From: Rotaria socialis
Lineage: Eukaryota
Reading direction: 5' to 3'
DNA: 64,000 nucleotides
Assembly (NCBI GenBank): GCA_905331295.1
Contig: CAJNYD010000333.1
Coordinates: 124,001 to 188,000 of the forward strand
Shown here piece after piece: positions 14,785 through 27,105 of this stretch (position 1 is its first letter; each line of letters starts with the position of its first letter). The translations under genes and the position numbers were made by a program. The notes under the pieces were generated by a model, which saw nothing but the letters and a program-made list of their open reading frames with translations, had not been told where the DNA came from and searched no databases.

Positions 14785-16685
14785 ATGATTATCAACAGTA
14801 TGTATTTGAATTTAAAATAGTTTCTTGCAATTAGTTAAATTGTAAAATGTTTTTTCCTTGGCATCTTTCATTTTAGTACTAACATTCATATGTGTAACAG
14901 CTGCGCATCAATTACCACTCGCTGATACGAACGTTGTATATTCAAATAGATTGCTGGATGCTTCCAGTCGTTCATTCATTCCGGAAACGATTGCTACTGA
15001 TTCTAGTGACTCTTTCACTATTTCGCAAGCGGACACCAATGAATTTCTGTCTAACTTAAAGAAGTCTACGCTAGATAGTAAGTGGCCGTATAGTCAGACG
15101 CTCTTTAATTGCATTTCTAAATATACTATAGACTTATTATTGCGTAACGAACGCTCAACATCACTCAGTGATCGTAATCGTGATGAGCAACTCGTGCTTG
15201 AAAATAATATCGAGGAAGAATGGAATTATCTATTGACTTCGGGACCACTTACAATCAACCGTCTGAATAGTCTACTTGTATATGGTAGTAAAAAGGACTT
15301 TCCGCTCATTTCTCCAGCGAATTTTCAATTTCTTTACGTAAAAAATTCAACGTCATTTCGTGCAACGATAATTTGATTATTCATCAATTGAAATGATTTT
15401 CATTTATTTACAAATTATATAATCTTTCACAACAGACTCTATGATATGTGAATAATTTCTCTCAAGTAGCCGATACGATCTATTCAACTCTTCTCAGTCT
15501 TCACGCTAAAATGCTTCAAATTCAATTCAATAACCTAAGATTATCAAGCTATATTAATACATCTACGAAGCTATTAGTTTCGAATTCATCAAAGATTATT
15601 GACTTCATGCTTCCGAAACTTTTAGCAGATCTCGATTATGTAGCCAATGAAAGTGTGATACATACTCGAACAATAATCGACAGATTACAAAATTCACATG
15701 ATCTTATATCAGAAGTCATGCAAATAAGCGCATACACACATTCTGCTCAGGCAGTAGGGTCTGGCAAAAAACGATCGTATGCCTTCGAACCAACATACAA
15801 CAATCAAGAACATCGTACTAAGGAATTTGACGGGAATAGTCAACTAGACACAAAGAATAAATCTAAAGAATATCGTCCTTCTTCGGACGTAAAATCATTT
15901 CAAATCGCGAACACAATTCCACAATCAATTCTCAATGGTTTTACTACTGTAGTTGAAACTATAAAAGATAACAATTTGTTAAAAGCTGGGCATATTGAGA
16001 ACGAGCGTGATATTGAAAGATTTGATATCAAAACCAATCAACAACGTGCTGCGCGTAGTATTATTGGTGGTGGTGTTGTTTCTAGACCGAATAAACAAGA
16101 AATTCAAGACATCATTGTCAATTCTAATATACAAATTAATCAAATAATGGTCCAATGGAGTAGACTAATGATTTTCTTTCACAAGCTCGTTGCACAAGTT
16201 GAACCGGTACACAAAGTAAGTCAAAGAAATTTATATATTCGGAGGTGAAAAAAATTGTTGATTGTCTTCTCTCTCTCTAGAGTATACTGAAAGATTATAT
16301 TGAACCGATCAAAGATTTAAAAGACGGCATATTACACTTGGACTCAGCCGAAAAAGAATTCTTTTTAAGCATGTTGGTAGGTGCATGCCAAAGCATAGAC
16401 GAACAAGCTGATTTGCTTTATGCTATGTCCAAAGCTTACACTGATATTTCGTCGGAATATATAATCAATCAAACAATCAACATGAATTTACTTATTTTGC
16501 AATCGAACGACGAAAAAGCATCATACTTGCGGGAAATATCTAACCAGATCACATTGATAACACCACGAGTCATTCAGTTAGCTGAAGACCAAAAAAATCA
16601 CCATTTCGCGCGCATTAACAATCGTCGTAGAGAATATCAACAAATTTTAGTCGATTTTACCGGAAGAAAAAAAACTGCTGATTGA
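14785..16685 (+). pseudogene. Cluster paralog A (long form), apparently disrupted
   Basis: Family motifs EEWNYLLTSGP, KKDFPL, SFRATI, QWSRLMIFF, ADLLYAMSKAYTDISSEY; TGA at 15374-15376 followed by ~80 bp non-GT-AG insertion splitting SFRATI/SQV; 5' micro-exon does not splice in frame. Confidence 0.65.
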
Positions 16686-17194
16686 TACCCATGGAAGAAA
16701 TTGGCAATGGGAAATATTGAATAAAAGCTGCATTGTTAATAAAAGAAAAGAGTGGATTGCTGAGTAGAATTTTATTCTTAATATTAGCATACCTATCATT
16801 CTGTATATTTCGAATATTTTTCCTGTTTCAAGAAATTCAGAGGAGAATATTTCAATGCCAGTAGGCCTAGTAAATGACATCTATCTTCGGGTCCTGTGAA
16901 AGTAACAGTCATATTTCCTATGTAGTTTAAACTCCATAGATAACATTGCTGTCACTATCGCTCTGCAACTTCAGAAGTATTCTAAATATTTTTAATGGCA
17001 AAAGTGAACAAATATCTTTGGATTATTAGATCAAATTTGTTTTTTCAAAGCTCTACCTATCGTTGTTTGTTTTTAAATTTATTTAGTATTCAAAATGGTA
17101 AACTTTGACAACAAACATCTACAGAACATTTTGTTTTTCAAACACTATTTTAGATATAATCCATAATTTGTTTTTAAATTATTACAAGATTTAT

Positions 17195-19205
17195 TTAGCC
17201 AATAATGCCTTCCAATTCAAATGTGGCCAAACTATTAAGATATGCGGTGTATTCAGCTTGACGATTACGATTTTCTTGAAGATAAAGGGTATGGCGATCT
17301 TGCGCTAATTGAGTGATTTTCAGTGAAGTAATCAATGTAGTATTAGACGCTTGTTGAAGTTGATTGTTACGAGCTTCATCTGTTTGTAACATTAACATTT
17401 TGGCAATGCCTGCAATTTGATTGATCATATGTTCGCTTGACACAGCATAGTAAGTTTTAGCCATAACATATAATAAATGTGCACCACTTTCAATAGTTGT
17501 AGCAGAAGGTAATAGAATTTCAATGAAAAATTCACGTTCAAATGGATTAACCAATAGATTGTCCTGTTGAGCTTGTTGAATAACTTCAACAAAGTCTTTG
17601 ACAACAATCTAAAACGAAAACTATTAGGAATAGAAGTGCGTTTAGAAAATCACTTCTCCTACTTGTTGAGTGCTATGAGCTTGAGCAGCTAATTTTGAGA
17701 AAAATTGGATCATACGTGACCATTGCTCTTTAATTTGAATGATCTGTTCGGTGGCTTCAACTAATAAACGAATGATTTCCTCTGTACTCAACACACTTAG
17801 ATCAAGCATAGCCATCTGGCCCATCGTTTTAGCTAATTCGTTTTGTTCAGCTAATTGAAGAAGAAAATGCTCATTATGAACTTGTTCAGCACGTTCCATT
17901 TCTTGTTTGGCAAGTTGAGCCGATTTCATTGCGTTTTCAAATTTAGTGTTATCAACTTTATAAGTTGGAGATCCACAGCTTCCCAATAGGCAGCCAATTG
18001 CTTGGACAGGATTGAAAACAAAACCAATAGCAACTTCAATCAGATTAGGTTGTGAAACACCGTCTTGTATGATATCGGGTGTTGATGATGCTGCAAGTAA
18101 TTCCATAGCTTCGGCGTATTTTTTACGAGAAAGTTCTAGATTTGCTTTTGATTGAGTGTATTGATTTTTTATAGTTGCAAGACTTTCTTCGAGGCGTTGC
18201 TGTTCAAAAGTTGAATTTATTATTTGATCTTTCATACTATTAATATCTGCTTCGTTCGACGATCCAGTACTTGCGCTCAATTCGATAATCTCAGCTAGCA
18301 AATCTTGTAATCGATTGAAACGAGTAAGTGTTGAATTAGCTACATTGGCGCTTTGCGTAGCTAACCGAGCTATACTATCGAGTGTAAGCGGTAACATTGT
18401 TTTGAGCATAGGGTCGGACGCCGAGGATATTAATTTCATTGCTGTTTTTACATATGTCGGAACTTGTTTAATAGCTAATTGAATAGAATCCATTGCTGTA
18501 TGAGCACCCATAAGAGCATCATACATTTCGGAAGATACTTGAGCGAGTGTAGCACGAAATGAGTTTGGATATCTGGAAAAAGTTTTTTTATTTCAAAAAT
18601 AATTATTAAATAAAAGAAAAGTATTATTATATATTTTACCTAATGAATCGATAAACATATCCAGCTGGAGTTCTGAATGGAAAGTCTTGCTTACTAGCAA
18701 GTACCATGAGATTGCCCATGTATCCAACAGCAATAGGACCTGAGACCATCAAATTTTCCCACTCTTTATCGATGTCTGTTTGATGTGTCAGTTGATCGTC
18801 ACGAAGTGGATCAAAAACGCTCGCATCGACACGTGATAGTATATCTACAAGGAAGAATATTTCAAAGCAGCCAGAGAAAATGAAATTGACTATTCGAAAC
18901 AAAACGCCGCAAAGACTCACCACGAGTAGTTCCATCAGCTGCATCGTCATTCAACAAATACTGAAGAAATTCATCATCATTCATTTTTGGCATGGACACT
19001 ATATCTTTTGTCGACATGTGTGATATTGTTTCAATATAAGGATCGAGAAATGGATCATCCGTTGGACTCATAAAAAGAGAACGTGCCATTGATTGAGTAG
19101 ATGCTGAAGTCAGCATCAGTAGACTCATGATCATCATGCATAAATAAACTGAAAGTAATATTTAAAGACAATATTTGTGAAAGAAAACTGCTCACTTGAG
19201 TTCAT
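17195..19205 (-). CDS. Cluster paralog B (long form, ~580 aa secreted helical protein, 5 exons)
   Basis: ATG micro-exon at 19205, signal peptide, EWENLMVSGP, SFRATLAQV, coiled coil, IAIGFVFNPVQAIGCLLGSC-type hydrophobic segment, KEQWSRMIQFF, GAHLLYVMAKTY; canonical GT-AG introns. Confidence 0.88.
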
Positions 19206-25590: not shown

Positions 25591-25862
25591 ATAAAAGAAA
25601 TATGATTAAAAAGAAGTATTCAGCTTGTCTTTTCGTTATTGAGTTGATAGAAAATTGTGTCCCGAAGATGCTTACTTTCATGTGCTCTATTATCGGCGAA
25701 AATATCAGTCATATGATCGTTCTAATAAGTCAAGCAATCAATCGGCCTTAGAGTATTAATGATATTTAAAGTTTTTTATGTAAAAAAAAACAAGGGAGTG
25801 CATTTCATACTTTTGCTAATAAACTTTGAAACCATAATCGTCCTATCGATAGAAGAAAGCGA

Positions 25863-27105
25863 ATGGGTAATATTTCCAATGTTATTTTTTTTTAACCAGT
25901 AAAATTTAATTTATCTTCAGATATAGCAACCAAGATTTTCCTACTTTCTCTTTGTTTATTTGAAACGGTCAATTCAAAAATAGAAGCCAATAGTCGAACA
26001 GATGAAGCACTTTCGACTGTAATACCCAGTAAGATGAAATTATTTTCGTCCAATCCGTTACTTTAGCTTTAAAAAAAAATTTGATATTTTAGAAATTCTG
26101 GCTAATCGAAATTTACGTGAAAGCAAACTTGATGATCATATATTAGTTGAAAACTGGCAAGATTATGTCTTAGCTAATGCTGTTCTTGCCAATTATTTGA
26201 ATATTTTAATGGTCCAAGCATCGAAATCAGATTTTTCCCTTTTAAAACAATCGAATCATTGTACAATATATGTCAAAACGCCTAGTTCGTTTCGCAAGAC
26301 AATTGTTCAACTAAGCGACAACATTCGACTCGTTCTGATGAATTTATATGGTGACCTACATCAAATTCAATTAACATTAGAAAATTTTCCTATTCATTTA
26401 AAAACTATTCTTCTCTTAATTGCAAAAGGAACCGAACAGCAAATAAATTCATATCTACCAAATCTACTTGTAAAAGGAGAAATTTATATTAATGAAAGTT
26501 TATTAATACTTAAAAATCCCCGAACCAAAACGGAACAAGTCAAAGATCTTATTGTCGAGTTAGAATCGTTAATTTCAAATGTATCATCTGAATATGCAGT
26601 TTCGTCACAAGTAGAAGATGTTAAAGCTCAATGGATTCTCTTTAATGATTTATTTGCTCAAATAGCCGTACAAGCTGAAAATGGTATTCATGATTTTCTT
26701 CTTCAATTCAATTGGGTTTTAGAACAATTTATTCAATTAAATGTTAGTAGCCATCGCGATTTAATACTTAATTTACTGAAACCAAAAGTTATTGAAATCG
26801 ACCGTACAATTGATCTTCTTAAAATAATATCAGAAACATCGGTCCAAATATCGTCAAGCTATACAAATCAAAAAATGACTGACAACATAAATTTAATTCT
26901 TCTATCAAATGAAGAACAACGAAAAGAAGCGATTAAAAATCATCGCTATGAATTACAACCCGTAGCAGTTAAATTTGCACGAATCGCCTTGCAAAGACAC
27001 GATGAATTTCTTGCACGTACGGCAAATCGCGAAAAAGCATATGAAGATTTCTTGAGCGAAATGTCTACAGCTGATTTAAACATTTTATTAACACTAAATG
27101 TATGA
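25863..27105 (+). CDS. Cluster paralog F (short form, ~375 aa, secreted, 3 exons)
   Basis: MDIATKIFLLSLCLFETVNS signal; NWQDYVL, SKSDF, SFRKTIVQL, KAQW, FLLQFNW (shared with E), RIALQRH. Confidence 0.85.

What the first reader, a model, noticed from the sequence alone, without database searches (positions are those of the whole stretch)
14785..27105. Six-gene cluster of secreted helical paralogs: candidate multi-component alpha-pore-forming toxin system
Seen: six adjacent genes in 12.3 kb share ordered motifs (W.d....gp...n.l..l...s+.DF; SFR.T..Q; VP..+K; L..E; K.QW; .LL.....Y..+S; +LA.+R), hydrophobic N-terminal signal-like peptides and tiny first exons with phase-1 introns, yet are strongly diverged. 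No enzyme motif is visible and the sequences look all-helical. Established: ClyA/Hbl/Nhe/Ahl/Smh alpha-PFTs are long helical bundles with a central hydrophobic tongue, often encoded as adjacent diverged paralogs acting together. Inference: an animal-encoded multi-subunit lytic (defence or digestive) system. I cannot assign a Pfam family.
Basis: partly seen in the sequence, partly recalled or inferred. Interest (0 to 1): 0.9.

Follow-up and report, generated by a model that had tools for sequence, protein, structure and literature searches.

The report
Rotifer cluster of ClyA-like secreted proteins
Six neighbouring, related genes in a bdelloid rotifer encode likely secreted helical proteins predicted to share the fold of bacterial ClyA/Hbl/Xax pore-forming toxins; two carry a hydrophobic tip and three lack it, so they may act together as a membrane-damaging defence system, and they belong to an unnamed family that also occurs in fish, a brachiopod and cnidarians.

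Summary
Six paralogs (22-41% identical) lie at 14785-27105 of a Rotaria socialis window. Each has a 4-16 nt first exon, a phase-1 intron and a hydrophobic N-terminus. No Pfam family fits. AlphaFold2 models of two paralogs align best to ClyA-superfamily alpha-pore-forming toxins (HblB, XaxA, NheA, Cry6Aa; Z up to 13.8, 8 of the top 9 and 14 of the top 17 rows). Those Z values are borderline for helical bundles, and a fungal pigment carrier scores as high. The paralogs are unequal. G2 and G3 carry a ~165-residue stalk with a conserved hydrophobic tip where the toxins have their head. G4-G6 lack it entirely. G1 has a hydrophilic insert and an interrupted frame. G2-G3-G4-G5 keep order and neighbours in another genome at 50-64% identity. 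Homologs reach sharks, coelacanth (labelled zgc:162509), Lingula and hydrozoans. Best reading: a secreted, probably multi-component membrane-damaging system (fold kinship ~0.8, membrane attack ~0.55, cooperation ~0.4). Expression, binding and lysis are untested. Animal ClyA-like genes are already reported in Drosophila and teleosts. A conserved headed-plus-headless cluster was not found in the papers searched.

The parts
14785..16685 (+). G1: diverged G3-related paralog with a hydrophilic central insert; reading frame interrupted between the stop at 15374-15376 and the next open frame at 15445 (possible pseudogene or unusual intron)
   Evidence: sister to the G3 clade in a FastTree tree (support 0.987); all 32 in-frame GT-AG pairs tested around the break cut into the conserved SFR.T..Q motif; R. 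magnacalcarata model P0159 skips this region and R. sordida model P0175 starts after it
17195..19205 (-). G2: 588 aa, five exons, long form with stalk, uncharged hydrophobic tip and Cys pair
   Evidence: orthologue P0073 about 75% identical over the main stretch
19606..21640 (+). G3: 588-596 aa, four exons (last intron GC-AG), long form with stalk, cationic amphipathic helix, hydrophobic segment and Cys pair; deposited model P0029
20745..20843 (+). Tip of the G3 insert (about P0029 residues 310-341): amphipathic then hydrophobic helix ending in a Cys pair; approximate bounds
   Evidence: 19-residue hydropathy 2.05; highest hydrophobic moment of the protein, 0.66; modelled as helix 313-337 at pLDDT about 55-65
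22988..24155 (+). G4: 371 aa, two exons, short headless form with Thr-rich linker after the signal-like peptide; deposited model P0001
24309..25590 (+). G5: 374 aa, three exons, short headless form
   Evidence: orthologue in L002 at 51%
25863..27105 (+). G6: 374 aa, three exons, short headless form, closest to G5 (38%)
   Evidence: Adineta ricciae orthologue P0120 at 49%

Best explanation
The cluster encodes likely secreted proteins predicted to have the ClyA-superfamily helical fold, which probably act together as a membrane-damaging defence or digestive system. Shown: six paralogs, two architectures, conserved order of four. Predicted by modelling: a five-helix tail bundle followed by one extra C-terminal helix in both forms; in G2 and G3 a two-helix stalk with a hydrophobic tip inserted where Hbl/Nhe/Xax proteins carry their membrane-binding head. 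Inferred: G2 and G3 would bind a target membrane through the tip (G3's is cationic and amphipathic, which would suit anionic microbial membranes), extend and oligomerise. The headless G4-G6 would join as pore-lining or scaffold subunits, as the transmembrane-free NheA/HblL2 do, or would cap the headed subunits until release. G1 is likely a decaying copy of G3. Odds by step: fold kinship 0.8; membrane attack by G2/G3 0.55; obligatory cooperation of several paralogs 0.4.
For: Full-PDB VIA-align: short model P0001 (pLDDT 86.5) gives HblB Z 13.8 (rmsd 2.7, 210 aligned), XaxA 13.7, NheA 13.5, YaxB 12.7; 8 of the top 9 rows are ClyA-family. Long model P0029 (pLDDT 78.4) gives XaxA 12.5, HblB 12.1; 14 of the top 17 rows. 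Re-alignment of Foldseek's top 1000 puts ClyA-family entries in rows 1-34, XaxA Z 13.5, next fold 7.2. The toxin matches span the targets from N- to C-terminus and include the first helix, which most designed four-helix bundles omit. The long model aligns a median 28 more residues to 13 toxin entries and 0 more to 17 other entries. The partition core-insert-core mirrors HblL1 domain 1/domain 2/domain 1 (PMC8065917). ESM Atlas: HBL cluster 0.89, HlyE cluster 0.83. Homolog P0090 residues 128-289 match NheB profile 199-354, E 3e-4. Hydrophobic tip: 48 of 61 non-redundant mid-length inserts reach mean hydropathy 1.6, the peak lies in the same zone in 57 of 61, a Cys pair follows in 50 of 61. Synteny of G2-G3-G4-G5 with the same flanking genes in L002, open frames, codon position 2 identity 72-80% against 51-57% at position 3. 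Precedent for induced, secreted ClyA-like immune proteins in Drosophila (PMC11731912).
Against: The aligner warns that Z under about 13 may be a common arrangement for helical bundles; a designed bundle scores 12.3 and the fungal pigment carrier PsPCP 12.2 over 212 of 225 residues. Foldseek gives no ClyA-family match at E<=0.001 and TM-scores of 0.31 or less. Sequence identity to the toxins is 4-13%. No HBL or HlyE family is among the 25 most frequent Pfam matches of 99 members; NheB and XaxA NCBIfam hits occur in 2 and 4 of 99 members, far below cut-off and among coiled-coil noise, and neither family is among the 25 of 31 families shown for the 51 short-form members. Atlas scores under 0.9 are leads only. 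The aligned-residue control is weak because most non-toxin targets are small and already fully aligned. No beta-hairpin tongue is modelled. Three of six genes have no head. None of 25 long-insert homologs reaches hydropathy 1.6, and 6 of 7 named non-rotifer homologs score 1.24 or less at the N-terminus. G1 and G6 are absent from L002, so membership of the cluster varies. Tandem paralogs stay clustered without cooperating.
Confidence: 0.45

Rival explanations
1. G2 and G3 are single-component ClyA-like lytic proteins, each acting alone; G4-G6 are duplicates with separate or decoy roles, and the cluster only reflects tandem duplication.
For: Same fold evidence. Drosophila HlyE-like genes also form tight clusters with pseudogenes (PMC11731912 section 21). 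R. socialis has at least one more family member outside this window (cluster of P0096; no near-identical match in the window). G1 and G6 come and go.
Against: The same four genes of two architectures persist in order at 50-64% identity; headless forms are under constraint, which needs a function.
Confidence: 0.2
2. The proteins are secreted lipid or pigment carriers: five-helix bundles like fungal PsPCP or apolipophorin, the hydrophobic tip serving for docking on lipid particles, not for lysis.
For: PsPCP aligns at Z 12.2, rmsd 3.0, 212 of 225 residues and Z 11.2; it is a five-helix protein with a polyene in its central cavity (PMC11311226 passages). Headless G4-G6 resemble it in plan. A lipocalin-like gene lies about 1 kb downstream.
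Against: PsPCP has no head, whereas the G3 insert adds aligned residues to most toxin entries. Atlas and NCBIfam hints point to HBL/NheB. The lipocalin was not detected beside the cluster in L002.
Confidence: 0.15
3. The long forms are precursors whose stalk presents a peptide that a convertase frees or exposes: an antimicrobial-peptide-like or fusion-peptide-like helix that disrupts or fuses membranes without a ring pore.
For: KR or RR lies within 8 residues after the stalk-ending proline in 20 of 61 mid-length homologs (background 4.4% of 8-mers), strict R-x-K/R-R in 9 of 61 (0.25%), directly before the hydrophobic segment. G3's segment is cationic and amphipathic.
Against: This window's G2 and G3 lack a dibasic site there; the counts come from related sequences; it does not explain G4-G6.
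Confidence: 0.1
4. The toxin likeness is convergence of long helical bundles; the proteins are structural or matrix components with no membrane role.
For: Borderline Z, 4-13% identity, poor Foldseek statistics; no profile hit to a solved toxin better than E 0.26.
Against: Consistent ranking of a dozen different ClyA-family structures at the top for two separate models; a conserved hydrophobic tip at the head position.
Confidence: 0.1

Closest known systems
Bipartite and tripartite ClyA-family alpha-PFTs (XaxAB/YaxAB; HblB-L1-L2, NheABC, AhlABC, SmhABC, MakABE)
   Same: Predicted five-helix tail with the head inserted mid-chain; adjacent diverged paralogs; hydrophobic segment present in some components and absent in others (PMC8065917, PMC7979752); signal peptides as in Hbl.
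   Different: 4-13% identity; intron-bearing animal genes; no beta-tongue modelled; longer stalk, N-terminal extension and extra C-terminal helix; three paralogs lack the whole head, whereas NheA has a head without a predicted transmembrane stretch; no pore or lysis shown.
Cry6Aa (App6) of Bacillus thuringiensis and the teleost 'Cry6Aa homolog' HOG0034670 (PMC12107551)
   Same: Cry6Aa gives the longest alignments (220 and 262 residues); a fish gene was named after Cry6Aa by HHpred at 99.46%.
   Different: Whether HOG0034670 is this family could not be tested (sequence and supplement not available). Its compared coding stretch is 1206 nt, while the fish homologs found here are about 690-720 aa.
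Drosophila hemolysin E-like proteins hl1-38 (PMC11731912)
   Same: Animal-encoded, intron-bearing, clustered, partly secreted ClyA-fold proteins with pseudogenes; proposed immune effectors.
   Different: Those carry a recognisable HlyE domain with beta-tongue, are 33-48 kDa and patchy in insects; this family has no Pfam hit, resembles Hbl/Xax more than ClyA (Z 12-14 against 8.5-9.6) and has headed and headless forms.
PsPCP pink chromoprotein of Pleurotus salmoneostramineus (PDB 8II8)
   Same: Five-helix bundle aligning over nearly its whole length, from the first helix on.
   Different: 225 aa, no head or stalk, binds a polyene; 8-9% identity; no sequence link tested.
Uncharacterised animal family labelled zgc:162509 (coelacanth H3B698; shark, knifefish, Lingula, Hydractinia, Clytia proteins)
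   Same: Sequence homologs (E 7e-10 to 9e-4 against 1.84 billion proteins) sharing N-core, stalk and C-core.
   Different: About 700 aa with a ~340-residue insert, weaker hydrophobic tip, mostly no signal-like N-terminus; function not described in the papers found.

Membership tests
ClyA superfamily of alpha-PFTs | Five-helix tail bundle with the head inserted mid-sequence | tested here: met
   On predicted models: Z 12-13.8, rmsd 2.5-4, 200-260 residues, N- to C-terminal coverage, top ranks. Z is near the level common for helical bundles, so this is likeness of fold, not proof of descent.
ClyA superfamily of alpha-PFTs | Hydrophobic membrane-anchoring segment in the head of at least one component | tested here: met
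   G2 1.71, G3 2.05; 48 of 61 homologs. Absent in G1 and G4-G6.
ClyA superfamily of alpha-PFTs | Detectable sequence relationship to HBL (PF05791), HlyE (PF06109), XaxA or NheB profiles | tested here: inconclusive
   No curated cut-off reached; best NheB E 3e-4 in one homolog, XaxA E 0.002; HblL1 E 0.26; Atlas 0.89 and 0.83.
ClyA superfamily of alpha-PFTs | Soluble-to-pore conformational change, oligomeric pore, lysis | not testable with these tools
   Needs experiment.
Tripartite Hbl/Nhe/Ahl/Smh/Mak toxins | Beta-hairpin tongue in the soluble head | tested here: inconclusive
   No strand in the G3 model, but pLDDT there is about 53-67.
Tripartite Hbl/Nhe/Ahl/Smh/Mak toxins | Adjacent paralogous genes kept together | tested here: met
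   Six in the window; four in the same order in L002, one independent locus since L001 is identical to part of it.
Tripartite Hbl/Nhe/Ahl/Smh/Mak toxins | Every component has a head domain | tested here: not met
   G4-G6 lack the ~165-residue insert; not filed under this family.
Tripartite Hbl/Nhe/Ahl/Smh/Mak toxins | Components needed together for activity | not testable with these tools
   Needs experiment.
Drosophila HlyE-like proteins | Recognisable hemolysin E domain | tested here: not met
   No HlyE Pfam match for the window's exons at E<=1 or for P0029.
PsPCP-like ligand carriers | Hydrophobic ligand in a central cavity | not tested

The most novel reading that the evidence does not exclude
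Animals carry an old, widespread, so far unnamed branch of the ClyA superfamily (rotifers, brachiopod, hydrozoans, sharks, coelacanth, bony fish, perhaps fungi). In bdelloids it has become a secreted multi-component pore-forming system of a new design, in which stalked, tip-bearing subunits (some protease-primed) work with headless partner or inhibitor subunits, while its signal-less fish and cnidarian relatives would be intracellular pore-formers of immunity or cell death.
Probability: 0.25. Interest if true: 0.9.

Novelty: new variant of a known kind. Interest (0 to 1): 0.68.

Why it matters
Multi-component ClyA-type pores are described from bacteria; the animal cases found in print are HlyE-like genes in flies and one fish gene named after Cry6Aa. 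If this reading holds, it assigns a fold and a testable activity to a large unannotated animal family that includes a zebrafish-labelled gene, adds a candidate effector to bdelloid defence, and offers natural headless subunits that test what the tail bundle does in pore assembly and self-protection.

Tried and rejected
Pfam on exons, homologs and alignment: no family above cut-off. PDB sequence searches: nothing for P0001 or P0090; profiles gave only coiled-coil and designed-bundle noise. Foldseek's best hit for G3, the Umb1 umbrella particle (E 4.4e-4), was rejected: rmsd 59.5, TM 0.13. Viral structure library: no match at E<=0.001. Exact-peptide scans of prokaryote genomes and viral contigs with P0029 found no relative; these are insensitive and do not exclude bacterial kin. 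A complex prediction of G3 (88-588) with G4 (48-371) returned no answer (0.00, 0.00; alignments not used). No RNA runs were obtained, so splicing, the state of G1 and co-expression are untested. No whole genome is held. Pathogen-challenge tables of PMC11258130 could not be mapped to these genes (the main expression file was too large to read). Earlier scan findings: none. P0140 among the hits is an Ig-repeat false positive. The weak Pfam Hemagglutinin hit on G3's tip (E 0.52) was not taken as evidence. PMC8986115 and PMC11896702 do not mention ClyA, Cry6 or HlyE. The tree (127 of 238 sequences, core columns, midpoint root) was used only to group paralogs, not to infer origin or gene transfer.
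Full report
Source and observation. The single-exon bulk of G4 and the main exon of G3 match deposited Rotaria socialis proteins at 100%, so the window is from this bdelloid rotifer. Six homologous genes lie between 14785 and 27105, and tblastn with 232 stored proteins found family matches nowhere else in the window. Exon models give first exons of 4-16 nt followed by phase-1 GT-AG introns in all six. 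Identities are 22-41%, with 18 invariant columns. N-termini are hydrophobic (hydropathy only).

Two architectures. G2 and G3 (about 590 aa) consist of an N-terminal extension, an N-core, a ~165-residue insert and a C-core. G4-G6 (371-374 aa) join N-core to C-core directly. The insert of G2 and G3 is a two-helix stalk with a hydrophobic tip and a Cys pair. In G3 a cationic amphipathic helix precedes the hydrophobic stretch. G1 groups with G3, its insert is hydrophilic, and its frame is interrupted by an AT-rich stretch with stop codons. All 32 in-frame GT-AG pairs tested there cut into a conserved motif, and gene models from two other Rotaria species skip or start after the same place. G1 is therefore a probable pseudogene or has an unusual intron; this is open.

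Family range. A whole-library search with G4 gave 119 proteins at E<=0.001. Thirty stored proteins were looked up; named ones are bdelloids (Rotaria, Adineta, Didymodactylos), Lingula anatina, Hydractinia, Clytia, three cartilaginous fishes, a knifefish and coelacanth, the last labelled Zgc:162509. The rest are unnamed records and were not classified. These ~700 aa homologs match both cores and have a longer insert whose most hydrophobic stretch falls in the same zone in 21 of 25, though none reaches 1.6. An Atlas cluster dominated by Ascomycota scores 0.94, a lead only. No Pfam family fits. No prokaryotic or viral relative turned up in insensitive scans.

Fold. AlphaFold2 models of G4 (pLDDT 86.5) and G3 (78.4) are all-helical. 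Against 48,161 PDB representatives, G4 ranks HblB (Z 13.8, rmsd 2.7, 210 residues), XaxA (13.7), NheA (13.5), YaxB (12.7), a designed bundle (12.3), PaxB, SmhA, AhlB and Cry6Aa. G3 ranks XaxA (12.5), PsPCP (12.2), HblB (12.1), and 14 of the first 17 rows are ClyA-family. A second look at Foldseek's top 1000 has ClyA-family entries in rows 1-34; that list cannot show folds Foldseek missed. Against this: the tool notes that Z under about 13 is common for helical bundles, Foldseek E-values for toxins are 0.0075 or worse with TM-scores up to 0.31, and identity is 4-13%. Weak separate hints agree: HBL and HlyE clusters in the Atlas (0.89, 0.83) and a NheB profile match across the insert of one homolog (E 3e-4). 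The long model aligns more residues to toxins than the short model does (median +28 over 13 entries, against 0 over 17 others), which suggests the stalk overlays the toxin head helices, but most controls had no room to gain. I put kinship with the ClyA superfamily at about 0.8.

The tip. Of 253 proteins, 118 had both anchors around the insert and 89 were non-redundant; the short forms did not align at the anchors and are not in these counts. Among 61 with a mid-length insert, 48 have a 19-residue stretch of mean hydropathy 1.6 or more, 57 have the peak in the same zone, 50 have a Cys pair, and 20 have KR or RR just before it. The sequences are related, so these are not independent events. The window's G2 and G3 lack the dibasic site.

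Clustering. Locus L002 holds Rab, MORN, F-box, G2 (minus), G3, G4, G5, LBR-like, PhyH and Rad21 in the window's order, without G1 or G6. The four genes have open main exons at 50-64% identity with the codon pattern of purifying selection. L001 is identical to part of L002, so this is one independent locus. Equal longest-contig lengths in the hit tables hint at linkage elsewhere (G2- and G3-like pairs in A. steineri; G4- and G6-like in A. ricciae); this is indirect.

Mechanism. In ClyA-family pores a hydrophobic anchor, a membrane-spanning helix and a hydrophilic lining are carried on one, two or three proteins (PMC7979752, abstract, introduction and first results read). In Hbl and Nhe the components have one, two or no predicted transmembrane stretches (PMC8065917, first quarter read). 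By analogy G2 and G3 would anchor and insert, and G4-G6 would line, scaffold or cap. The analogy is imperfect, because a component with no head at all is not among the solved toxins matched here. Each step after the fold is inference. The only functional hint is a table row listing zebrafish zgc:162509 protein as up in a CuSO4 inflammation model (PMC7271515, one passage); its link to this family rests on the coelacanth label.

Relation to print. Drosophila HlyE-like genes (PMC11731912; abstract, sections 21 and 22 read) and a teleost gene named after Cry6Aa by HHpred (PMC12107551; passages read, supplement not readable) show that animal ClyA-like genes are known. Ten searches of the paper library (listings, with passages read as cited) showed no description of this rotifer cluster, of headless members, or of a function for zgc:162509. 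The library lacks most subscription papers, and the fish Cry6Aa homolog may belong to this family. PMC4567377 (one passage) only lists zgc:162509 as expressed in sturgeon development. PMC11311226 (passages) describes PsPCP as a five-helix polyene binder and supports the carrier rival.

Verdict. A real, conserved gene cluster of an unnamed animal family with a probable ClyA-type fold and an unusual split into tip-bearing and headless members. It works like a multi-component alpha-pore-forming system with probability about 0.45. It is not filed as a member of Hbl/Nhe/Ahl. Novelty: new variant of a known kind. Interest 0.68.

Noticed in passing
window 41341-43697 (-): ADP-ribosyltransferase (PF03496, E 1e-5) plus TPR-repeat gene, with a near-identical second copy of its N-terminal part at 43362-43697 beside an N at 43390; tandem duplicate or assembly artefact.
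   Followed up: partly
window 40112-40672 (-) and 62199-62930 (+): Two AIG1/GIMAP-type GTPase genes.
   Followed up: partly
window 37874-38365 (-): TIL-domain cysteine-rich protease-inhibitor-like gene.
   Followed up: partly
window 13373-14392 (+): F-box protein with a weak PP2 lectin-like C-terminal match (E 0.019); conserved next to the cluster in L002.
   Followed up: partly
window 28160-28846 (-): Lipocalin-like gene (E 8e-4) about 1 kb downstream of G6; not detected in L002.
   Followed up: partly
window 32738-33424 (+): PhyH-family dioxygenase in one open frame; origin not tested.
   Followed up: no
window 21172-21226: The last intron of G3 is GC-AG, at the same position and phase as GT-AG introns in G1 and G2.
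   Followed up: yes
window 15078-15131: A 54-nt in-frame GT-AG phase-1 intron candidate in G1 at about the position of intron 2 of G2 and G3, used by the R. magnacalcarata model.
   Followed up: partly
PDB 8II8: The fungal chromoprotein PsPCP aligns to the same five-helix core as ClyA-family tails; it may itself be a headless relative. The paper's passages do not mention toxins.
   Followed up: no
protein cluster of P0096: Another R. socialis family member outside this window carries R-R-K-R directly before its hydrophobic tip.
   Followed up: partly
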